From an uncultured Gammaproteobacteria bacterium (lineage in GTDB: Bacteria > Pseudomonadota > Gammaproteobacteria > UBA9214): a stretch of 64,000 nt of DNA. The notes under the pieces are model-generated. The model searched no databases and was not told where the DNA came from. It saw only the letters and a program-made list of their open reading frames with translations. The DNA lies in the NCBI GenBank assembly GCA_963827755.1, contig CAWHCQ010000012.1:1-64000 (forward strand). Reading direction: 5' to 3'. This document shows positions 1 through 9,980 of the stretch, piece by piece (within the stretch, counting starts at the first letter, position 1; each line of letters starts with the position of its first letter). The position numbers and the translations under genes are program-made.

Positions 1-1305
1 GGGATACCCAATGTCGGTGTGGATGCGGACATTCAGGACGTGATTCGTACCCATGACGGCCAGCGTGTGGTGCTGGCCGTCAGTCCCGCCGGCCTGGTTG
101 AACTGGAGCCGGACGGGCCGCAGTGGGATGCGGAATTCGGCAAGGCAAGCGGGACATCCGGCACCGTCATTCGTCCCGACCTGGAAAAGCTGGACCTGTC
201 GGTCAAGGAGTTTCTCGTTCTCGATACACTGCGTGCAGATGACTCCGGACGCGTTGTCGGTCCAAAGGCCGCCAAGCTCGGTGAACTGCGTCATGCGTAT
301 CCGGAGGCCGTGGCGCCGGGCGTCGCCATTCCCTTTGGCGTGTTTCGGGAAACGGTGCTGGACAAGCCCTACGAGAATACCGGCAAGACGATGTTCGAAT
401 GGATGGTCGAGCAATATCGCACGATGCAGTCCATGCCGGAAGACTCTGCCAGGCGGCAGGAATTTACCGAACAATTCCGCGCCGAGGTGTATGAGCGGAT
501 TGCATCGGCAAAGCTGGACGACGATTTCAGGAGCGCACTGCGCAAGGCCATGGATGAGGCCTTCGGCACAGGCAGCTATGGCGTGTTCGTGCGCTCCGAC
601 ACCAACGTCGAGGACCTTGCCGGTTTTACCGGTGCCGGTCTGAACCTGACCCTGCCGAACGTGATCGGGGTGGACAATGTGATTGACGCCATTCCGCGGG
701 TCTGGGCATCGCCGTTCACGGCCCGGGCCTTTGCCTGGCGGCAGTCGCACATGGAAACACCGGAGCATGTCTACCCTGCCGTGCTGTTGCTGAAGTCGGT
801 GGCGAATGACAAGTCCGGCGTGATGGTGACCCAGGACATCGATACGGGCGACCGCGCGATTATTTCAGTGGCCGTCAATGAAGGCGTCGGTGGTGCGGTC
901 GATGGCCAGTCTGCAGAATCCCTGCGCATTGACACCCGCGATGGTTCGGTGCGGGTGCTGGCCATGGCGACGGCCCCCTGGCGCCGCAACCCGGTGGCCA
1001 GCGGCGGTGTCGAGAAGGTCCCGACCAGCGGCAGTGATACGGTTTTACAGCCGGACGAGATCAGGCAGCTCATACACTTTGCCAAAGAACTGCCGCAAAG
1101 GTTTCCCTCGATTACGGATGACGAAGGCAAGCCGGCGCCGGCGGATGTCGAATTCGGTTTTCTGAATGGCAAGCTGCAGCTGTTTCAGATACGTCCCTTC
1201 CTGGAAAGCAAGCAGGCCCGTGGCAGCAGTTACCTGAACAACATGGACAAGACGCTGGAAGGCCGCCTCGATCAGACAGTAAACATGCAGGAGATACCAC
1301 GATGA
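1..1305 (+). CDS. PPDK/PEP-synthase-type ATP-grasp (nucleotide-binding) domain protein, dikinase-like; 5' partial
   Basis: Frame is open from base 1 (GIPNVGVD...). Motifs GPKAAKLGEL, VRSDTNVEDLAGFTGAGLN, VWASPF, SGVMVT and DVEFGF...LFQIRP match the PPDK N-terminal-type domain. The protein ends shortly after, with no PEP/pyruvate TIM barrel. Confidence 0.8.
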   Translation, partial: GIPNVGVDADIQDVIRTHDGQRVVLAVSPAGLVELEPDGPQWDAEFGKASGTSGTVIRPDLEKLDLSVKEFLVLDTLRADDSGRVVGPKAAKLGELRHAYPEAVAPGVAIPFGVFRETVLDKPYENTGKTMFEWMVEQYRTMQSMPEDSARRQEFTEQFRAEVYERIASAKLDDDFRSALRKAMDEAFGTGSYGVFVRSDTNVEDLAGFTGAGLNLTLPNVIGVDNVIDAIPRVWASPFTARAFAWRQSHMETPEHVYPAVLLLKSVANDKSGVMVTQDIDTGDRAIISVAVNEGVGGAVDGQSAESLRIDTRDGSVRVLAMATAPWRRNPVASGGVEKVPTSGSDTVLQPDEIRQLIHFAKELPQRFPSITDDEGKPAPADVEFGFLNGKLQLFQIRPFLESKQARGSSYLNNMDKTLEGRLDQTVNMQEIPR

Positions 1306-2633
1306 TTAAATTCCTGGCTGTGCCGCTGTTGCTGATGCTCGGCATTCCCGTCCCTGGTGACGCGCCTATCCGCTCGATGGTTACGCGGAGACCGGCATCC
1401 GGCGGGTGGAAGGCGAGCGCCTGGCGAATGAAGGCGTTATCCGCGGACGCAAGCAGCCGCCGGGGGCGCAACTGTCGACGGCGGAAGTGGACTTGCGGCT
1501 GCTGGATTACCCGGACATGGAACTGCCGGCACCGGACCCGGCATTCAACCGGCAGATCCTGAAGCTGCTGGGTAGCAATGCAGGCCGCTACGGAATCGCC
1601 GTACTGGACCTGAGTGACCCGGAAAATCCCCGCTATGCCGAACACCGCGGTGACTACAGGCAGAATGTCGGCAGCGTCGGCAAGATGGTGGTGGCGCTGG
1701 GCCTGTTCCAGGCACTGGCCGATGCCTGGCCGGATGACCTGGCAAAGCGCCGCGGATATTCTGAAAAACACCATCATTACCGCCGATGAATTCAGTCACT
1801 GGGACCATCACAAGATTCGCCTGTTCGATGTCGAGGCACAGAAACTGACCCGGCGCACAATGAAGGATGGCGACCAGGGCTCGCTCTGGGAGTACCTCGA
1901 CTGGATGCTGTCCGCCAGTTCCAATGCGGCCGCCGCCATGACCATGCGCGATGCCATGCTGCTGAAACAGTATGGCAAGGACTATCCCGCCTCCGGAAGA
2001 AGAAATCCAGCGGTTCTTCAGCGAAACTCCGAGAAAGGAACTGACCGCACTGTTCCAGGCGACCTTCTTCGACCCGATCACCCGCAACGGCCTGGATATC
2101 GAACCAGTTGCGCCAGGGCAGCTTTTTTACCCGTACCGGCAAGAAAAAGGTGCCCGGCGGCGGCAACAGCTACGGGACTGCCCGGGAACTGGTGCTGTTC
2201 ATGCCTGCGCATGGAACAGGGACGGCTGGTGGACGAGTTTTCCAGCCGCGAGATGAAGCGCCTGCTCTACATGACCGAGCGGCGCATTCGCTATGCCTCA
2301 TCCCCGGCACTGCGGGACTCGGCCGTGTATTTCAAGTCCGGCTCCCTCTACAGCTGCCAGGAAGAAGAGGGTTTCAAATGCGGCAAGTACATGGGTAATA
2401 AAAAGAACTACATGAACTCGGTCGCGATCGTGGAAAACTTCAACGAAGGCCGCCCGCTGCATTACATCGCGACCCTGATTTCGAATGTGCTGCGCAAGAA
2501 CTCGGCCGTCGACCACCAGACCATGGGCACGCGCATTCACCGGATTATGGAGAAGGCCAACCCGGTACCGCCACCCGCGCTCACTGAACCGGAACCGCTG
2601 GCGAGCGAAGTGCAGCCCGGGATAAAAAATTGA
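1302..2633 (+). CDS. Exported serine hydrolase, class A beta-lactamase/PBP-like fold; frameshifted (several indels)
   Basis: Joined from ORFs 1302, 1406, 1614, 1972 and 2108. Signal peptide MIKFLAVPLLLMLG, then SxxK (SVGK), SxN (SSN) and KSG motifs in order. ATGA overlap with the upstream gene. Confidence 0.75.
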
Positions 2634-2657
2634 GGTGCCGGCAGATTCACGCATTGA

Positions 2658-2751
2658 GTAGGACGGGTCCGTCGCTGCGCTCCTTGTCCCGGCCTACGAT
2701 AGGACAAACCTCGTTACGGCGTAGGCCGGATCAAGCGCAGCGGATCCGGCA
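2658..2751. repeat. Pair of GTAG-type REP-like palindromes
   Basis: GTAGGACGGG...CCCGGCCTAC (2658-2697) and GTAGGCCGGATCAAGCGCAGCGGATCCGGCA (2721-2751) resemble the enterobacterial REP consensus. They lie between convergent genes. Confidence 0.7.
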
Positions 2752-2760
2752 CTCCAACTA

Positions 2761-4944
2761 TCAGGACTCATCTGCCCTGTGCGGTCCCGCATTCTGCACG
2801 ACGGATTTCAGTTCTTTCATAATCTCGCGCAGTGAGCGCGAGTCACCTGCGGCCTTCCTCACTGATGCCGAGACGTTGCACCAGTAACTGGTAGAGGTCG
2901 GCTGGTAAAACATTTTCCAGGTACTCGAGTGCGGTACCGCGCAGATTGATATCCTTGCTGAAGGCGGCTTGCATGGACATATGGACGGCATCCGGGTCGA
3001 GGGTAAGTGACAGCAGGGTAAACACATGTTCCATGTTACGGTTGATGTGCGGGACTTCCCGGGTCTTCCACAGGGGTATCACCCAGGTTCAGCTTCATGC
3101 TGCGGGACTCCCATTCTTCCATTGAGGCCATGAGTTCCTCGCGAATTGCCGAGTAGACCGTTTCACGGGGTATTTTCAGGCTGGCACTTCTCAGACGCAT
3201 CCGCGCCAGTGCCCTTGCACAACTGTAACGCACGTTAAATGACGCATCCATCATGCCCAGTAACAGGCCGTCAATGGAACGCGGGTTGTGGCTGGCCTCA
3301 AGGACGCCCGGCAGTCGTTGTCGCGCCAGCATCGGCACGTCCGGATCCAGTAATGCATCGGTTAACTGGCCGGGAATTCTCGGTACCAGCCAGCGCAACT
3401 CGGTGCGTACATCATCCGCAATTTCATCATTTTCAAGCAGCGGGATCATATAGGGTGTAAGACGGACATCGATCAGGGAAGCATTCAGGGCATGCTTGAT
3501 GCGATCAGTGTCGTTGGAGCCAAGATCGGCTATCAGGTCTGCGAGGGATGTACTCTCGTCCTCTTCGTCAATGGAATAGCCTGCATCGGTCTTGCGTTCC
3601 TGCATGGCGTCAATTTTCGTTTGCAGGAAGTCCCTTTCTGAATATGCGTTGGACTCCGCCAGGATATGCTGGGTGGTGGCATCGATAATATCTTCCTCCT
3701 CGATTCGCACTACTCCCTTGCGCAGGCTGCTTGCCAGCTGGTTGATGTAGCCACGATTTAGCCGGGTAATGACATAGAGTGCGAATATGGCAACAAGGAC
3801 AGCACAGGCAGCCACAATGGCCGTGGGAAGATCCGGAAGAAGAAACAGTAAAAGCAGGATAATACCACTGCCAATCAGATCACCGAGCCGGTCACTTGCC
3901 ACATCAATGATGGTCTTGGTGGGACGTTTCTTGTGACGGGGCAATGGCGTATACAGCAGTTCAAAAGCGGAGCGGAAAAGGGAAGTGACAAAAACGGCAT
4001 GGCTGCCGCGCATCATGATCATTGTCCAGAGATGCGTAACTACCGTTCCGAATATTCCGAACAGGGCAACGACGGCGGGCAATATGGCAATCGTGGCACC
4101 GATACCAAATCGCTGCAAAATGCGACGACCGAGCAATGTCTGCAAGACAAACCCCAGCACCCCGATGAAGGCATAAAACGATCCAAAGAACGCGACCAGT
4201 GACTCTGTATCCTTGTAATGGGCAGCCGCTTCGGCCTTGAATGCGTAGTCCACCAGCGCTGCCATGACTGCGATCAGCACCATGAGGGCTGCCATCCACT
4301 GCAGATACGGGGTATGTGAAATGATCGTGAAAGCGGAGCGGGTCCTGGCCTGATGCTCCACCGGCACTGCCCTGGTTTGTGTGCCAATCCCCATGACGGC
4401 TACCAGGCAGACCATGTGCAGACCGCTCAGGAACAGCAACATGCTGCGTACATTTAACTGGCTGGCGACCGTGTCTGCCAGCATACCGCCTATGACACCA
4501 CCCAGCGTGGCCGCGGCAGCAATGCGGGCGACCCGTTGTTTTGCTGAATGCGGGTCGAAACGTTCGTTGATAATCGACCAGAAGCCGCTGATCAGGATGG
4601 CGCCAAAGACGGCCATGTGCAGGTACAGAACGATGGATGCGATACCCGGTTGATAGTCGAGCAATACCCATTCGCCCATAAAAAGAACGGCGCTCAGTCC
4701 GAATACGCCGGGAATCAGCCTGGCGGGTGTGATAGTGTGAAAGCAGCCGCGACATCAGCAGCACGCCCCCCATGGAGACAATGGCGGCCGCGATTACCAT
4801 CTTGGGAAGATTGGTTACATCAAAATTGGAAAGAAACAACGCATCCCGGGTCGCCTTGCCGGCGACTTGCTGTGCGATCATGGTGGTTGCTGCAAACAGC
4901 GCAAACACCAGCGCCCTGGAATCGGACTTCGTGGCGTTCACCAT
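2761..4944 (-). CDS. TLC/Npt-type nucleotide (ATP/ADP translocase-like) transporter with C-terminal HEAT-like helical domain; frameshifted
   Basis: Joined from the N-terminus of ORF 3961-4944 (GKATRDALFLSNF), ORF 3036-4679 (FWSIINERFD, LVDYAFK, ELLYTPLP, KTIID), ORF 2843-3082 (LRGTALEYLEN) and ORF 2761-3027. Many hydrophobic helices followed by a soluble helical tail. Confidence 0.72.
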
Positions 4945-4966
4945 GAGCTGCGAGTTACTTCTTTGA

Positions 4967-5285
4967 TGCAGGTTTTAACAATGAGGTTCATGCCAATGGG
5001 GTACCCGGCACCCCGGTGGTGAATGCCGGTGGGATCAATTTGTGCACGTGTCACAGCACCCCGGCACTGGAGCGACATTTCCCCGAAAACAGTGATAAGG
5101 GATAATACTGAAATAATATATGTATATATATCAATAATTTAATAGTCACTTCTCGAGTGGAACATAAGGTATTTTTTGTGAATATTCACGCTTGTTTTCA
5201 TACAATTCAAGCTGACTTTGCTTAGGTCGAAATAGATAAAAGTGATATAATCTTAGCTTAACTTAGAAACCTACTCGTAGCTTAT
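4967..5285. promoter_or_regulatory. AT-rich divergent promoter region
   Basis: Markedly AT-rich intergenic stretch between divergent starts at 4944 (-) and 5286 (+). No specific site assigned. Confidence 0.4.
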
Positions 5286-6185
5286 ATGAGAAATCTACGT
5301 ATAACCATTTTTGGACTGGTCGCGCTGTTCACATCCGTGCAGGTATCTGCCGACGGGATGGACGGCTACCCTTCCCTGTGGGAAAGCCATGATCACGGTC
5401 TGCAGCAGCAGCTTGAACACGGTCCTGAAAGACCTCGGTCTCGACAAGGCCGTGCGCAACAAAAAACTGGGGGTGACCCTGGTTGACATTACCGATCTGG
5501 AAGAACCCCTGGTGGCCTCTGTCAATGGCGACACAATGCTCTATGCAGCAAGCCTGCCCAAGATCGCAATCCTGATGGGCTGCCTTTGTAGAAATCGACC
5601 AGGGCAACATGGTATCTGGATGAGGATACCCGCGCTTCATTGACCCGGATGATCAGGAAGTCCTCCAATGCCGATGCAACCCGTATGCTGAATCACGTTG
5701 GCAAGGACCGGTTGCTGGAAATCCTGCAAGACGACGAGTACGACCTGTATGACGAGCGCGTTAACGGCGGTCTTTGGGTCGGCAAGGAATATGGCAAGTC
5801 AGCCGCCTACAAGCGCGATCCCTTGCACAACCTTTCTCATGGCGCTACTGCCATGCAGGCGGCAAGATTCTACTACCTGATGGAAACCGGTCGCGTGGCC
5901 AATCCCGAGCTGACGGGTGAAATGAAAGCGATGCTGGGCAACCCGGGCATCAAGCACAAGTTCGTAAAAGGCCTTGCCGCTTTCCCTGATGCAAAGATCT
6001 TCCGCAAGTCCGGTTCCTGGAGCCGCTGGCATGCAGACAGTGCAATTGTCGAGGCCGATGGCCGCAAATACATTATCGTGGCACTGGCTGAAGACAAGAG
6101 CGGCGGCAAATGGCTGAGCAGCATGATCAAGCCTATCCACGAGTTCATGGTACCCAGCAAACTGGCGAGCAATACTCACCAGTAA
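5286..6185 (+). CDS. Exported serine hydrolase, class A beta-lactamase/PBP-like fold; frameshifted
   Basis: Joined from ORFs 5286, 5311 and 5640. Signal peptide MRNLRITIFGLVALFTSVQVSA; motifs YAASLPK (SxxK), SSN and KSGS. Confidence 0.78.
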
Positions 6186-6385
6186 TTCTCCCTGCTCTGC
6201 CCCTTATGGCAGACATATCTGCGGCAGCACATCACAACTTCTCTCCTCGATTAACAGGTGTGCAATTGCACGCCTGTACACTTGCAGCTATATGAAGCCA
6301 GCTTGTTTGTTTTGCGATGTAGGATGAGCCCTTGTACACTCTGCTGAACCAGTAGCAGGCACTCCTTCATTAACCAGTCTACCTG

Positions 6386-7220
6386 ATGAACACGGCATAT
6401 AATCAACGTGGTTTTTTAACTGGCCTTTTGCCTGTTTTTCTGTCGCTATCGCTGATCGGATGCATCAATCCTGCAGTCAGGACAGAGCCACACGAAATGC
6501 TGAATGCCACCTTGTGGCAACGGACCTCGGCTGAATACATAGGCGTTGCCAGCCAGGCCTGGCAACTGGCACAGCTCAATCTCGACAAGGCACTCGCAGA
6601 CCCGCAGTGGTCAGCAGCCCTCGAGCAAACCGGCAACTACACCGGCTTGCCACCCGCCATCATGCTGGATCTGGATGAGACCGTACTTGATAACACGGCT
6701 TATGAAGCCCGCATTATCAAACAGCTGGGACAGTACACGCATGCCAGCTTTGCTGACTGGTGCCGGGAAAGCAATGCACCCGCAGTCAGCGGGGCTAAAC
6801 CATTTCTTGATTATGCAATGGGCCAGGATGTCGCTATCTTTTATTACAGCGCACGCAGGGAGAAACTGCGTGACTGTACATTGCGAAACCTGCATGAACT
6901 GCAATTGCCGCTGCCGGATGAGTCCAGGCTTTTTCTGAGCAATGGAATGTCCAAGACTGAATACCGCACAAGGGTGGCGCAACACTATCGCATACTGTTG
7001 CTGATCGGAGACAACATGGAAGATTTTATCGACGGCTCCAAGAACCGGCCCCGACATGCGCCGCAAACTGGCCACGGACTACGCGGACCGGTGGGGACGT
7101 CAGTGGATCATTCTACCCAACCCGATGTACGGCCACTGGGAATCGTCCATTTACAACTTTGATTACGCACTGCCGCGTGCAGAACAGTTGCAGCGTAAAA
7201 TGCAGGAGCTCGGGGAATAG
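6386..7220 (+). CDS. 5'-nucleotidase/class C acid phosphatase, lipoprotein e(P4) family; frameshift near 7043
   Basis: Lipobox LIGC, HAD motif DLDETVLDN and LLIGDNMEDF. The shifted frame gives WGRQWIILPNPMYGHWE and a stop at 7220. Confidence 0.85.
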
Positions 7221-7232
7221 CCGTATTGCACC

Positions 7233-8624
7233 CTATCCGGCGAACCCTCCTGCCGAGACCCTGCGATGTTCACGCACCAGCATAATGCCAACTACCAGCC
7301 ATAGCACCACAAGTGACACATTAAAAATAAAGAACTGTTTGGTTGCCAGCGAAAGGAACTGAACGCCAACCAGGACGGTCAATGCCGCAAGGCCATCGCC
7401 GAGGCGGACATAGAGCGTATCGATGGCCGGCTTGCCGCGGAATTTCAGCTCCGAACTTATCGGTAACCAGAGTACGTGGCGTGAGGTGTTATTGATCGAG
7501 TAGTCCGTCGCATTTTCCGCAATCTTCATCATCTTTACGATAGCAAGGATCGGCAACAATGCCATCGTGGTATACGACACCAGGGCGATCACGGGAAGCA
7601 TCAGCAAAATGGCAGCAAAACCACCGTACTTGAGCAACCGCGAGGCAACCAGGGATTGCAGCAGCAACGCGATGATGTTCACCCAGAAATAGAAGTTTCC
7701 GTAGAACGCCGTGGTCCCGTCCCGGGTAAACGTACGCATCGCCTCCGGGTCGGTCATCCCCTGCGCAGCGGCCTGTTCCGCCAGCGCTTCCTGGATCACC
7801 CGAAACAGCAGGTTCTCGCCGTTGGTGTTCACCCAGTTGGTCAACAGCGTAACCAGGGCTGCAGCGAGCATGAAACGACTGACGAAAACAAGTTTGGCAC
7901 CGCTCAGCAGGAAACCGGCGCCCTTTTCCGCGGGTTTTTCAGAGGCTACAGCGGGAATAGCGTCTGCAGGTTCTGCACTGGCGCGTTGACGCGCATCAAC
8001 GATGCGGGTCAGCAGGATGGAAATGAACAGCGGTATTGTCGCCACGATCAGCAGACCCTCGGTCGGTATAATCCCGTTATCCACCAGCAGATCGACAATC
8101 CATGAACCCGCCGCCGCACCGGACGTGGCGCCAATGGCAATCATGGGCAACAGGCGTTTACCGGACTCGTTGGTATAGACGTCGGCACAGAACGTCCAGA
8201 ACTGGGCAACCACGAAAACCCCGAACATACCGACCCAGAGGTAGAAGATAATGCCTGATACCGGTAACTGCTCAAAGAAGAATCCTGGCTGGAAGAACCA
8301 GAAAATCACCATGTTGGAAATACAGAACAGGGTTGCCCGCGTAATCAACGTGGAACGGTCCCAGCGGCCGGACAGGCGTGCATACCAGCCGACGATGAAC
8401 AGCAGGAATACGCTCTGGGCAAAGCTGGAATAGGCCTTGACCTCCATCTTTGACAGTCCTGAAATATCCGATATTGAGATCCAGCCCTCTCTCAGTGGCT
8501 TGATAAAATAGTAGGCGCAGAGAATAAGAAAGACATTGGCGAACATGAGGAGCGCAGTAGAGCCCTCGCCGGGCCGCACCTCGGTGAAGATTTGCAGGAA
8601 TCGCTCTGTTCTTGAAAGCTGCAT
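7233..8624 (-). CDS. TLC/Npt-type nucleotide exchange transporter (ATP/ADP translocase-like, MFS fold)
   Basis: Motifs AYYFIKPLRE, QFWTFCADVY, KRLLPMIAIG, ENATDYSINNT and KPAIDTLYVRLGD; about 12 TM segments. Start placed at MQLSR. Confidence 0.82.
   Translation of the reverse strand: MQLSRTERFLQIFTEVRPGEGSTALLMFANVFLILCAYYFIKPLREGWISISDISGLSKMEVKAYSSFAQSVFLLFIVGWYARLSGRWDRSTLITRATLFCISNMVIFWFFQPGFFFEQLPVSGIIFYLWVGMFGVFVVAQFWTFCADVYTNESGKRLLPMIAIGATSGAAAGSWIVDLLVDNGIIPTEGLLIVATIPLFISILLTRIVDARQRASAEPADAIPAVASEKPAEKGAGFLLSGAKLVFVSRFMLAAALVTLLTNWVNTNGENLLFRVIQEALAEQAAAQGMTDPEAMRTFTRDGTTAFYGNFYFWVNIIALLLQSLVASRLLKYGGFAAILLMLPVIALVSYTTMALLPILAIVKMMKIAENATDYSINNTSRHVLWLPISSELKFRGKPAIDTLYVRLGDGLAALTVLVGVQFLSLATKQFFIFNVSLVVLWLVVGIMLVREHRRVSAGGFAG

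Positions 8625-8700: not shown

Positions 8701-9980
<1,280 letters not shown>

What the first reader, a model, noticed from the sequence alone, without database searches (positions are those of the whole stretch)
1..8624. Candidate undescribed envelope ATP-dependent system: dikinase + two serine hydrolases + two nucleotide translocases + nucleotidase
Seen: six adjacent non-core genes next to serS. They encode an ATP-grasp dikinase-like protein translationally coupled to an exported SxxK hydrolase, a TLC/Npt transporter with a helical tail, a second exported SxxK hydrolase, an e(P4) lipoprotein nucleotidase and a second TLC/Npt transporter. Known: TLC carriers exchange nucleotides (ATP/ADP translocases of Rickettsia, Chlamydia and plastids); PPDK-type dikinases turn ATP into AMP + Pi; e(P4) enzymes dephosphorylate NMPs outside the cytoplasm. 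Inference: the transporters could supply ATP to the normally ATP-free periplasm for a dikinase that activates or phosphorylates an envelope substrate handled by the PBP-like enzymes, with e(P4) clearing the AMP. A simpler alternative is extracellular nucleotide scavenging. I know of no described pathway with this gene combination.
Basis: partly seen in the sequence, partly recalled or inferred. Interest (0 to 1): 0.88.

Follow-up and report, generated by a model that had tools for sequence, protein, structure and literature searches.

The report
Exported dikinase module with ATP-type carriers
This is one copy of a widespread, undescribed bacterial gene module in which an ATP-using phosphorylating enzyme and two penicillin-binding-like hydrolases are all sent outside the cytoplasm, next to carriers of the ATP/ADP-translocase family. 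It suggests that some bacteria deliberately supply ATP to their periplasm.

Summary
In this assembly four of them are interrupted by 1-bp indels, and a contig end truncates the dikinase. rpoB, metH and serS are split too, so these are most likely assembly errors, not decay.

An intact near-relative locus and more than 100 related loci show three things:
- **The dikinase is exported.** 29 of 29 close homologues and 7 of 8 distant ones carry an N-terminal signal sequence. The mature protein keeps one invariant Cys pair.
- **Its architecture matches the glucan-water-dikinase core.** It has a new all-helical acceptor domain with no fold match in PDB, then a phosphohistidine domain, then an ATP-grasp.
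- **The linkage is conserved across phyla.** In 61 well-flanked loci, hydrolase 1 is adjacent in 60, hydrolase 2 in 57 and a TLC/NTT carrier in 39. In a class-wide sample, 15 of 18 dikinase-positive genomes have a TLC2-like gene, against 15 of 182 without.

e(P4) and the TLC-HEAT carrier are accessory to the module.

ATP export, the acceptor substrate and the direction of transport remain untested.

Best reading (about 0.45): an ATP-fed periplasmic phosphorylation pathway. I found no description of it in four literature searches.

The parts
1..1305 (+). 3' part (434 codons) of the exported His-swivel dikinase gene. It encodes the end of the phosphohistidine domain and the whole ATP-grasp domain. 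The 5' half lies beyond the contig end.
   Evidence: PF01326 PPDK_N scores 102 bits. The window is C12:1-64000. It is 87% identical to residues 546-979 of the intact 979-aa orthologue L004:6289-9228. A full-length second copy lies on C34 (L003:2054-4930).
1302..2633 (+). Hydrolase 1: an exported class-A PBP/beta-lactamase-like serine hydrolase, translationally coupled to the dikinase through an ATGA overlap. The frame is broken by six 1-bp insertions in this assembly.
   Evidence: Junction and the three frames were read. Insertions were mapped. The intact copy on C34 (436 aa) scores 28.9 bits on PF13354 against a cut-off of 22. SxxK, SxN and KSG motifs and a Cys pair are conserved in 54 orthologues.
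2761..4944 (-). TLC/NTT-family carrier with a C-terminal helical (HEAT-like) tail, an NTT-HEAT fusion. The frame is broken near 4734 and 3053. It is accessory to the module.
   Evidence: PF03219 scores 55 bits against 21. HEAT_2 matches are only weak and below cut-off. It is 89-90% identical to the intact 724-aa L004 orthologue. It is present in 5 of 38 well-flanked loci.
5286..6185 (+). Hydrolase 2: a second exported class-A PBP/beta-lactamase-like serine hydrolase. The frame is broken by insertions at 5418, 5581 and 5614.
   Evidence: The signal peptide was read. The L004 orthologue scores 53.9 bits on PF13354 against 22. SxxK, SxN and KSG motifs are conserved in 43 orthologues. Indels were mapped.
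6386..7220 (+). e(P4)-type class C acid phosphatase / 5'-nucleotidase lipoprotein, with a frameshift at 7038. It is accessory to the module.
   Evidence: PF03767 scores 101 bits against 27. TIGR01533 scores 137.5 bits, below its cut-off of 216. The lipobox LSLIGC was read. It is present in 8 of 38 and 0 of 23 well-flanked loci.
7233..8624 (-). TLC2: a divergent TLC/NTT-family carrier with an intact frame. It is the carrier type most often linked to the module.
   Evidence: PF03219 scores 25.1 bits against 21. A profile of 26 neighbourhood carriers matches solved ADP,ATP carriers 9j3n (E 1.9e-29) and 9j3j (E 2.4e-21) over nearly the full length. 20 of the 26 match Pfam TLC. The start at 8624 is set by homology to L004.
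8701..9980 (-). serS, a flanking core gene that is not part of the module. It is split by a 1-bp deletion at 9726.
   Evidence: PF00587. It is 92% identical to L004 serS. The indel was mapped and the start was located.

Best explanation
Window 1-8624 is one copy, damaged by assembly errors, of a conserved and so far undescribed extracytoplasmic module.

**Core genes**
- An exported dikinase of about 975 aa. It has a Sec signal, a new all-helical acceptor domain of about 450 aa with one disulfide-type Cys pair, a phosphohistidine swivel domain (invariant GNPLSH) and a C-terminal PPDK_N ATP-grasp.
- Two exported serine hydrolases with class-A PBP/beta-lactamase motifs.
- One or two carriers of the TLC/NTT (ATP/ADP translocase) family.

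**Accessory genes**
- In this lineage, an e(P4) phosphatase lipoprotein and an NTT-HEAT carrier.
- In other lineages, an SDF symporter fused to a periplasmic amino-acid-binding domain, and an exported metallophosphoesterase paired with an exported kinase-like protein.

**Most likely mechanism**
1. The NTT carrier runs as an exchanger. It delivers cytoplasmic ATP to the periplasm in return for a spent adenine nucleotide.
2. The dikinase splits ATP into AMP and Pi and carries the beta-phosphate on its histidine.
3. The histidine swivels to the helical domain and phosphorylates a periplasmic acceptor. The two hydrolases also work on that acceptor.
4. AMP is re-imported, or dephosphorylated by e(P4) or the metallophosphoesterase.

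**Shown:** gene content, export signals, intact catalytic motifs, domain order and conserved linkage.
**Inferred:** ATP export, the direction of transport and the AMP fate.
**Unknown:** the acceptor. Candidates are a glycan or peptidoglycan-derived D-amino-acid peptide.
For: **Export**
- Signal peptides are present on the intact orthologues and on the C34 copy, in the adjacent frame.
- 29 of 29 close homologues have an N-terminal hydrophobic segment. In 28 of 29 the mature part contains only the invariant Cys pair.
- 7 of 8 homologues at 30-35% identity also have the segment.

**Catalytic competence**
- PPDK_N scores 96-102 bits.
- The His of GNPLSH, the GPKAAKL lysines, the RSDTNVED motif and the E/Q/R of the C-terminal EFGF...FQxRP are invariant in both close and distant alignments.
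- The C-terminal domain superposes on the rifampin phosphotransferase ATP domain, HpeI and PEP synthase, with Foldseek E 3e-11 to 3e-10.

**Architecture**
- The N-domain model has pLDDT 84 and pTM 0.80 and is all-helical. It has no PDB fold match (best E 0.65).
- In 149 of the 150 best matches from 1.84 billion representatives, the N-domain sits at the N-terminus of the protein.
- The order acceptor domain, His domain, ATP domain is that of the GWD1 catalytic core (passages of PMC13553574).

**Linkage**
- Hydrolase 1 lies directly downstream in 60 of 65 loci that have at least 1.5 kb downstream.
- In 38 well-flanked loci: hydrolase 1 in 37, hydrolase 2 in 35, a TLC-like carrier in 24.
- In 23 further, more distant well-flanked loci: 23, 22 and 15.
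- The TLC-like neighbours come from at least three subfamilies.
- In a sample of 200 other genomes of the class, 15 of 18 dikinase-positive genomes have a TLC2-like gene against 15 of 182 without (Fisher p 7e-12, kin not independent). Ten of those genes lie within about 6 kb of the dikinase.
- Five genomes with no adjacent carrier have TLC2-like genes elsewhere.

**Carrier identity**
- The carrier profile matches solved ADP,ATP carriers at E 1.9e-29.

**Hydrolases**
- SxxK, SxN and KSG motifs are conserved, and both hydrolases have signal peptides.
Against: - **No transport data.** Nothing here shows that these carriers move ATP or export it. All characterised NTTs belong to parasites or plastids, and those of free-living bacteria are uncharacterised (PMC5381601 passages).
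- **Linkage is not universal.** 14 of 38 and 8 of 23 well-flanked loci have no adjacent TLC-like gene.
- **Three exceptions in the class sample.** Three of 18 dikinase-positive genomes (completeness 96-100%) had no TLC2-like match at E<=1e-10.
- **The carrier is not exclusive.** 15 of 182 genomes have the carrier without the dikinase.
- **AMP fate is unexplained in most loci.** A dikinase yields AMP, whereas classical NTTs exchange ATP for ADP (recalled). A phosphatase that could clear AMP is adjacent in only 12 of 38 loci in the first set, and no e(P4) or metallophosphoesterase was found in any of 23 in the second.
- **Weak family scores.** TLC2 is a weak TLC member by sequence: 25 bits for the window copy, no Pfam hit for the L004 orthologue, and far below the TIGR00769 cut-off. 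The mobile-domain Pfam score of 19.8 is below its cut-off of 23.1.
- **The acceptor is unknown.** The acceptor domain resembles nothing solved.
- **The genes are broken in this genome.** If the indels were real, the module would be decaying here.
Confidence: 0.45

Rival explanations
1. Extracellular nucleotide scavenging. The TLC carriers import nucleotides from outside, e(P4) dephosphorylates NMPs to nucleosides for uptake, and the dikinase and hydrolases are either unrelated neighbours or help recharge AMP.
For: e(P4)-type phosphatases and TLC carriers are both nucleotide-handling families. Exported phosphatases recur near the module in 12 of 38 loci. All characterised NTTs are importers (PMC5381601 passages).
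Against: - The conserved partners of the carrier are the dikinase and the two hydrolases (39 of 61 well-flanked loci), not e(P4), which is present in 8 of 61.
- An exported ATP-grasp with invariant catalytic residues has no role in plain scavenging.
- Running the dikinase backwards needs a high-energy phosphoryl donor outside the cell, and none is evident.
- No nuclease is conserved in the neighbourhoods.
Confidence: 0.15
2. The TLC-like carriers do not move ATP. They move the dikinase's substrate or its phosphorylated product, or another organic anion. The module is then a periplasmic modify-and-import (or export) pathway, and the enzyme's nucleotide comes from another source.
For: - The carriers are very divergent from characterised NTTs, far below the TIGR00769 cut-off, and they also score on MFS_1.
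- NTT relatives carry varied substrates (recalled).
- A second importer, the SDF-SBP_bac_3 fusion, sits in 12 of 38 loci and shares an operon with the carrier and the dikinase in Betaproteobacteria. That points to small-molecule traffic.
Against: - It leaves the ATP-grasp without any known nucleotide supply in the periplasm.
- At least three different TLC subfamilies, but no other transporter class, were recruited repeatedly.
- The family profile aligns over its full length with solved ADP,ATP carriers.
Confidence: 0.17
3. A periplasmic xenobiotic or antibiotic inactivation island. A rifampin-phosphotransferase-like dikinase phosphorylates a toxic small molecule, and the two class-A-like enzymes are beta-lactamases.
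For: The best structural and sequence matches of the ATP domain include rifampin phosphotransferase. Both hydrolases match Pfam Beta-lactamase2 and keep the SxxK, SxN and KSG motifs.
Against: - The acceptor domain is unrelated to any solved rifampin-binding domain.
- NCBIfam RPH models score 54-88 bits against cut-offs of 999-1700.
- The dikinase is 55-75% identical across classes and phyla, in a fixed four-family module beside core genes. This is the pattern of a housekeeping pathway, not a mobile resistance gene.
- The hydrolases have no sequence match to any solved beta-lactamase.
- It still needs periplasmic ATP.
Confidence: 0.08
4. Nothing functional is here. The genes are decaying pseudogenes in this organism, or the export signals and the linkage are annotation artefacts.
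For: Four of the six genes have disrupted frames in the window. The MAG has 5.4% contamination and two 89%-identical versions of the first 3.4 kb.
Against: - Essential genes of the same assembly are split too: rpoB and serS, and also metH.
- The Illumina-assembled near relative L004 has every gene intact.
- Signal peptides and linkage hold in more than 100 independent loci.
Confidence: 0.04

Closest known systems
Plant alpha-glucan, water dikinase (GWD1/PWD)
   Same: The catalytic-core order is the same: an all-alpha acceptor ('central') domain of about 440 aa, then the phosphohistidine domain after a short link, then a C-terminal PPDK-type ATP-binding domain (passages of PMC13553574; models). 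The expected chemistry is ATP + acceptor + H2O giving AMP + acceptor-P + Pi.
   Different: - No CBM45 or CBM20 starch-binding modules were found.
- No sequence match of the acceptor domain to any PDB chain was detectable.
- The protein is bacterial and carries a Sec signal, so it works outside the cytoplasm.
- Its partners are serine hydrolases, not amylases.
- Homology of the acceptor domains could not be tested here.
Rifampin phosphotransferase, HpeI, PEP synthase and PPDK (cytoplasmic His-swivel dikinases)
   Same: The ATP-grasp domain is homologous (Foldseek E 3e-11 to 3e-10; hmmsearch E 7e-24 to 1e-10). The swivelling phosphohistidine motif is conserved.
   Different: - The domain order is permuted: here the ATP domain is last.
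- There is no PEP/pyruvate TIM barrel and no rifampin-binding domain.
- All equivalog models are far below cut-off.
- Those enzymes are cytoplasmic, whereas this one is exported.
TLC/NTT nucleotide transporters (Rickettsia/Chlamydia ATP/ADP translocases, plastid NTT1) and the uncharacterised NTT-HEAT fusions of free-living bacteria
   Same: Family membership is supported by Pfam TLC and by a full-length profile match to solved ADP,ATP carriers. The first carrier has the NTT-HEAT architecture that Major et al. 2017 describe as widespread and of unknown function (PMC5381601 passages).
   Different: - The carriers are very divergent, well below the TIGR00769 cut-off.
- They occur in free-living sediment and soil bacteria that make their own ATP.
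- They are genetically tied to exported enzymes, which suggests outward supply rather than energy parasitism.
ATP supply to eukaryotic lumenal compartments (ER AXER/SLC35B1, peroxisomal ATP/AMP exchangers, Golgi Fam20C kinase with lumenal nucleotidases). Recalled, functional analogy only.
   Same: The logic is the same: a membrane exchanger feeds ATP to an enzyme in a compartment that makes none, and the spent nucleotide is returned or dephosphorylated.
   Different: The carrier families are unrelated. No bacterial counterpart is known to me or was found in the four literature searches. As far as is known, the periplasm uses lipid-linked donors instead, for example LpxT (PMC2229476, seen in the search listing and abstract only).

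Membership tests
His-swivel (PEP-utilising) dikinase superfamily | PPDK_N ATP-grasp nucleotide-binding domain | tested here: met
   PF01326 scores 102.4 bits on the window fragment and 96.4 bits on the C34 copy, against a cut-off of 27. There is a structural match to the RPH, HpeI and PEP synthase ATP domains.
His-swivel (PEP-utilising) dikinase superfamily | Mobile phosphohistidine domain with a catalytic His | tested here: inconclusive
   PF00391 scores 19.8 bits, below its cut-off of 23.1. It is precomputed on 5 of the 120 listed homologues. However, the GNPLSH...ARNLGIPN block is invariant in 29 close sequences, and its S-H...A..., G-I-P-N core is invariant in 8 distant ones.
PEP synthase / PPDK proper | C-terminal PEP/pyruvate-binding TIM-barrel domain, with scores above the equivalog cut-offs | tested here: not met
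   No PEP-utilizers_C domain was found. NCBIfam PPS models score 28-99 bits against cut-offs of 598-1063.
Rifampin phosphotransferase | Order ATP-grasp, rifampin-binding domain, His domain, with a score above the equivalog cut-off | tested here: not met
   NF041857 scores 88 bits against 999, and NF000283 scores 54 bits against 1700. The domain order is reversed. The acceptor domain has no PDB fold match.
Glucan, water dikinase (GWD/PWD) | Domain order of all-alpha central domain, His domain, C-terminal ATP domain | tested here: met
   Models, compared with the GWD1 description read.
Glucan, water dikinase (GWD/PWD) | N-terminal starch-binding modules (CBM45 or CBM20) | tested here: not met
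   There is no CBM match in Pfam. The protein starts with a signal peptide followed directly by the helical domain.
Glucan, water dikinase (GWD/PWD) | Homology of the acceptor (central) domain | not testable with these tools
   No GWD sequence or structure was reachable. The profile search of A2 against PDB chains found nothing better than E 0.03, to unrelated proteins. The VIA-align wide library was not available.
TLC/NTT nucleotide transporters | Sequence membership (Pfam TLC, relation to solved ADP,ATP carriers) | tested here: met
   - TLC-HEAT scores 55.1 bits and TLC2 25.1 bits, against a cut-off of 21.
- 20 of 26 neighbourhood carriers match TLC; the L004 TLC2 orthologue itself does not.
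- The profile matches 9j3n at E 1.9e-29 and 9j3j at E 2.4e-21.
- TIGR00769 is not reached: 47.9 and 21.4 bits against 387.
TLC/NTT nucleotide transporters | Transport of adenine (or other) nucleotides | not testable with these tools
   This needs uptake or exchange assays.
Class-A PBP/beta-lactamase-like serine hydrolases | Pfam Beta-lactamase2 match plus the SxxK, SxN and K(T/S)G motifs | tested here: met
   - Hydrolase 1 scores 26.3-28.9 bits and hydrolase 2 scores 53.9 bits, against a cut-off of 22.
- The motifs are conserved at 95% or more in 54 and 43 orthologues.
- The definition of the three motifs is recalled.
- There is no sequence match to any solved chain.
e(P4) class C acid phosphatase lipoproteins | HAD IIIB acid-phosphatase domain, lipobox, and a score above the equivalog cut-off | tested here: inconclusive
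   - PF03767 scores 101-130 bits against 27.
- The lipobox was read.
- The LDLDETVLDN and GDNMEDF blocks are visible; the DDDD motif definition is recalled.
- TIGR01533 scores 137.5 bits, below its cut-off of 216, on the frameshifted window copy. The intact L004 copy was not scanned against NCBIfam.

The most novel reading that the evidence does not exclude
Many free-living Gram-negative bacteria run an ATP-fuelled phosphorylation pathway in the periplasm. NTT/TLC carriers are best known as tools of energy parasites; here they work outward to supply ATP to an exported glucan-water-dikinase-like enzyme, and in some lineages also to an exported Fam20-like kinase candidate. The dikinase phosphorylates an envelope or exogenous polymer that two PBP-like hydrolases then process. 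This would overturn the textbook view of the periplasm as an ATP-free compartment, and it would give a function to the enigmatic NTTs of free-living bacteria.
Probability: 0.4. Interest if true: 0.92.

Novelty: categorically new. Interest (0 to 1): 0.82.

Why it matters
The periplasm is taught as a compartment without ATP. Known periplasmic phosphorylations borrow lipid-linked donors.

Here is a large protein family that combines an intact ATP-grasp/phosphohistidine machine with a conserved export signal:
- more than 1286 relatives were found in one search;
- at least 578 species genomes matched in one scan;
- about 9% of sampled families of the class carry it.

It is genetically tied to the only bacterial carrier family known to move ATP across membranes. 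If the inferred mechanism holds, it would:
- define a new kind of envelope biochemistry;
- give a role to the NTT and NTT-HEAT carriers of free-living bacteria, unexplained since 2017;
- add a bacterial relative, and perhaps ancestor, of the starch dikinase core;
- name cultured organisms in which it can be tested directly (Parahaliea, Agaribacterium, Halieaceae isolates).

Even if ATP export proves wrong, an exported dikinase with a novel acceptor domain still needs an explanation.

Tried and rejected
- **Complex prediction.** The dikinase acceptor domain (A2) was folded with hydrolase 1 (A5, residues 22-425). The verdict was 'no answer' (score 0.00, mark 0.32). It is not evidence either way. 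The full-length dikinase plus a hydrolase exceeds the size limit, so other domain pairs were not tried.
- **Fold search of the acceptor domain.** Foldseek against PDB found nothing (best E 0.65). The top, non-significant row in both fold searches was the cyclisation domain of a cyclic beta-1,2-glucan synthase, and I do not use it. A profile against PDB sequences gave only chance-level rows.
- **Hydrolases against PDB sequences.** There were no matches.
- **Residue-level check of the nucleotide-binding residues of the carriers.** The paper for the solved carriers was not in the library, so this was dropped.
- **Literature.** Four searches for a periplasmic or exported dikinase, periplasmic ATP or kinase, and the function of NTTs in free-living bacteria found no description of this module. 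Subscription journals and supplements were not searchable.
- **Pseudogene reading of the window.** Considered and rejected, because rpoB, metH and serS are split too.
- **Paralogous duplication as the explanation for the C12/C34 overlap.** Considered and left open.
- **c493, the Fam20-like candidate.** The Atlas score is 0.90 with only 157 shared features, and there is a 70-residue HMM match to a protein-kinase catalytic-loop region at E 3.6e-4. This is a lead only, and the gene is absent from this genome.

Full report
**What is in the window**

| Coordinates | Strand | Gene |
|---|---|---|
| 1-1305 | + | C-terminal 434 aa of a PPDK_N ATP-grasp protein |
| 1302-2633 | + | serine hydrolase starting in an ATGA overlap with the dikinase stop |
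| 2761-4944 | - | TLC-family carrier with a helical tail |
| 5286-6185 | + | second serine hydrolase |
| 6386-7220 | + | e(P4)-type acid phosphatase lipoprotein |
| 7233-8624 | - | second, divergent TLC-family carrier |
| 8701-9980 | - | serS |

serS is followed by crcB, rarA, lolA and ftsK. The window is the first 64 kb of contig C12 of a 52-contig MAG with 91.8% completeness and 5.4% contamination. The dikinase gene therefore runs off the contig end.

**Quality of the sequence**

Four of the six genes are out of frame. An alignment to an intact near relative (L004, an Illumina-assembled MAG, 82-85% nucleotide identity) shows:
- six single-base insertions in hydrolase 1;
- one or two in TLC-HEAT;
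- three in hydrolase 2;
- one in e(P4);
- a 1-bp deletion in serS.

The same genome has rpoB in two pieces with an internal TGA and metH in two pieces. Because essential genes are affected alike, I read these as assembly indels, not decay. L004 has every gene intact.

A second contig end, C34:1-3358, overlaps window 1-3443 at 83-89% identity. It carries a full-length dikinase ORF and an intact hydrolase 1. In L004 the locus is single and continuous from metH to serS. The two contigs therefore probably represent two co-binned populations, although a duplication is not excluded.

**The dikinase is exported**

- The L004 orthologue (979 aa) and the L005 orthologue begin with classical Sec signal peptides.
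- In C34 the signal peptide lies in the adjacent frame, just upstream of a frameshift.
- A search of 5.8 billion proteins gave 1286 relatives at E<=1e-5 among 8000 scored candidates.
- I fetched 28 of the 120 listed. With L004, all 29 have an N-terminal hydrophobic segment (12-residue Kyte-Doolittle mean of 2.0 or more).
- In 28 of 29 the mature part, about 940 residues, contains exactly two cysteines: the invariant pair C60/C73. One sequence has a third.
- Of 8 distant members (30-35% identity), 7 have the signal segment and 7 have the Cys pair.
- None shows a twin-arginine motif on reading, so export would be by Sec, as an unfolded chain. That excludes loading with phosphate before export (inference).

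**Architecture**
- Pfam finds PPDK_N at residues 609-932 and a sub-threshold PEP-utilizers mobile domain at 491-531.
- The block GNPLSH...ARNLGIPN, with the presumed phosphohistidine, and the ATP-grasp motifs are invariant in the close alignment. They persist in the distant one.
- The full-length model is mediocre (pLDDT 64.5). Its C-terminal domain matches the ATP domain of rifampin phosphotransferase, HpeI and PEP synthase at Foldseek E 3e-11 to 3e-10. A sequence profile matches them at E 7e-24 to 1e-10.
- The N-terminal 464 residues, folded alone with 41 sequences, give a confident model (pLDDT 84, pTM 0.80). It has a small beta hairpin region carrying the Cys pair, followed by about 20 helices.
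- That model has no fold match in PDB (best E 0.65) and no sequence match.
- Against 1.84 billion representatives, this domain has 621 relatives at E<=1e-3. In 149 of the 150 best, it starts within the first 84 residues of the protein. Complete proteins are about 945-1050 aa. The one exception is a 557-aa protein where it starts at residue 378.
- It is therefore a single-architecture family.
- The order of all-alpha acceptor domain, His domain and ATP domain is the order of the potato GWD1 catalytic core as described in PMC13553574 (passages read). There are no CBM modules, and homology of the acceptor domains could not be tested.
- It is not a PEP synthase, PPDK or rifampin phosphotransferase. 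There is no TIM-barrel or rifampin domain, and all equivalog scores are far below cut-off.

**Conserved linkage**

Two scans of one-genome-per-species contigs found at least 535 and at least 578 genomes with relatives.

*Set 1: 82 distinct loci at 54-100% identity.*
- Hydrolase 1 lies directly downstream on the same strand in 60 of the 65 loci with at least 1.5 kb downstream.
- The 38 loci with at least 5 kb on both sides were counted. The other 44 were left out for short flanks. Counts are in the table below.

| Neighbour | Loci of 38 |
|---|---|
| hydrolase 1 | 37 |
| hydrolase 2 | 35 |
| TLC-like carrier | 24 |
| SDF symporter fused to SBP_bac_3 | 12 |
| e(P4) | 8 |
| TLC-HEAT | 5 |
| exported metallophosphoesterase | 4 |
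| its ~490-aa partner (c493) | 5 |

*Set 2: seeded with distant members.*
- Of 70 loci, 16 were duplicates of set 1 and were removed. That left 54 new loci, of which 23 were well flanked.
- Among those 23, hydrolase 1 is present in 23, hydrolase 2 in 22 and a TLC-like carrier in 15. No e(P4) or SDF fusion was found.
- This set includes Woeseiaceae, whose dikinase is only 35-38% identical but whose gene order is fixed as hyd2-TLC-dik-hyd1. It also includes Desulfobacterota, Gemmatimonadota, Nitrospirota, Acidobacteriota, Zetaproteobacteria and a spirochaete MAG.

*The carriers.*
- The adjacent carriers belong to at least three TLC subfamilies, which argues for repeated recruitment.
- As a family they are genuine TLC/NTT members. 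20 of 26 match Pfam TLC, and their profile aligns over nearly the full length with solved ADP,ATP carriers (E 1.9e-29 and 2.4e-21).

*Class-wide sample.*
- In an even sample of 200 other genomes of the class, 18 have the dikinase.
- 15 of those 18 also have a TLC2-like gene at E<=1e-10, against 15 of the 182 without the dikinase. Fisher p is 7e-12.
- Related genomes are not independent, and one of the 15 is an unpublished genome.
- In ten of the 18, the carrier lies within about 6 kb of the dikinase.
- Five genomes without an adjacent carrier have TLC2-like genes elsewhere.

**The hydrolases and phosphatase**
- Both hydrolases have signal peptides. They keep SxxK, SxN and KSG at 95% or more conservation across 54 and 43 orthologues. 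Hydrolase 1 also has a conserved Cys pair.
- They exceed the Pfam Beta-lactamase2 cut-off but match no solved protein by sequence.
- The phosphatase has the HAD IIIB domain, a lipobox and the aspartate blocks, but scores below the e(P4) equivalog cut-off on the damaged window copy.

**Mechanism**

An enzyme whose ATP-grasp and phosphohistidine residues are under strict conservation, and which is exported unfolded, needs a nucleotide on the outside. The gene family most consistently recruited beside it is the only bacterial family known to carry ATP across a membrane.

1. NTT carriers supply periplasmic ATP by exchange.
2. The dikinase transfers the beta-phosphate through its histidine to an acceptor bound in the novel helical domain.
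3. The two PBP-like hydrolases act on the same substrate.
4. AMP is returned or dephosphorylated.

The recurring accessory genes fit an extracytoplasmic nucleotide and phosphate economy with uptake of an amino-acid-like product:
- exported phosphatases;
- an importer with a periplasmic amino-acid-binding domain;
- an exported protein with weak kinase-like signals.

By analogy with GWD the acceptor may be a polymer. By the nature of the hydrolases it may be peptidoglycan-related or a D-amino-acid peptide. Neither is shown.

I put the whole mechanism at about 0.45. The parts that are shown (real module, exported dikinase, conserved four-family linkage) I put at about 0.9.

**What speaks against it**
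- No transport or enzymatic data exist.
- A third of well-flanked loci lack an adjacent carrier.
- Three of 18 dikinase-positive genomes showed no TLC2-like gene with this query.
- The carrier also occurs without the dikinase.
- The AMP/ADP mismatch with classical NTT exchange is unresolved. Phosphatases that could resolve it are adjacent only in a minority of loci.
- Rivals are listed separately: scavenging, carriers moving the substrate or product, a resistance island, and artefact.

**Novelty**

Major et al. 2017 reported NTT and NTT-HEAT genes in free-living bacteria with unknown function (passages read). Four full-text searches found no exported dikinase, no periplasmic ATP supply system and no description of this module. 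Subscription-only papers and supplements were not searchable.

The parts belong to known superfamilies, but the system matches no known kind.

Noticed in passing
window 1-3443 and G000:C34:1-3358 (L003): Two contig ends of the same MAG overlap over the dikinase, hydrolase 1 and TLC-HEAT region at 83-89% nucleotide identity. The near relative L004 has a single continuous locus from metH to serS. This is probably two co-binned populations (contamination 5.4%), though a duplication is possible.
   Followed up: partly
G000:C31:73374-77418 (rpoB), L003:6371-9788 (metH), window 8701-9980 (serS): Core genes of this assembly are split by frameshifts or an internal TGA. This indicates frequent indel errors throughout the genome, so any pseudogene call in this window should be distrusted.
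   Followed up: partly
L004:5410-6138; also G000:C34 about 5080-5626: A 242-aa exported protein rich in Gly, Met, Pro and Trp (p242) lies directly upstream of the dikinase in 7 of 82 loci. It has no Pfam match and its function is unknown.
   Followed up: no
L005:7515-9782 (-), and 11 other well-flanked loci: A fusion of about 740 aa joins a sodium:dicarboxylate symporter-family transporter (PF00375), an extra transmembrane helix and a periplasmic SBP_bac_3 amino-acid-binding domain (PF00497). It sits next to the module in 12 of 38 loci. In Betaproteobacteria the apparent operon is TLC, SDF/SBP, dikinase, hydrolase 1. It is absent from this genome.
   Followed up: partly
L041:7451-8953 (+) with L041:8950-9921 (+); also L020, L037, L047, L048, L055, L072, L081: An exported protein of about 490 aa (invariant QQDRIGN and DNDAG blocks) is coupled to an exported calcineurin-like phosphoesterase. 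It shows a weak protein-language-model likeness to bacterial Fam20C-domain clusters (0.90) and a 70-residue HMM match to a protein-kinase catalytic-loop region (E 3.6e-4). It may be a second exported kinase in the same neighbourhoods.
   Followed up: partly
window 4945-5285: The divergent intergenic region between TLC-HEAT and hydrolase 2 is AT-rich (about 50% GC in the local window, against 56-62% around it). It is poorly conserved with L004, with many indels, and is presumably a shared promoter region.
   Followed up: no
G000:C9:21771-23012 (-): A second TLC2-like gene (30% identity) lies elsewhere in the same genome, away from the module.
   Followed up: no
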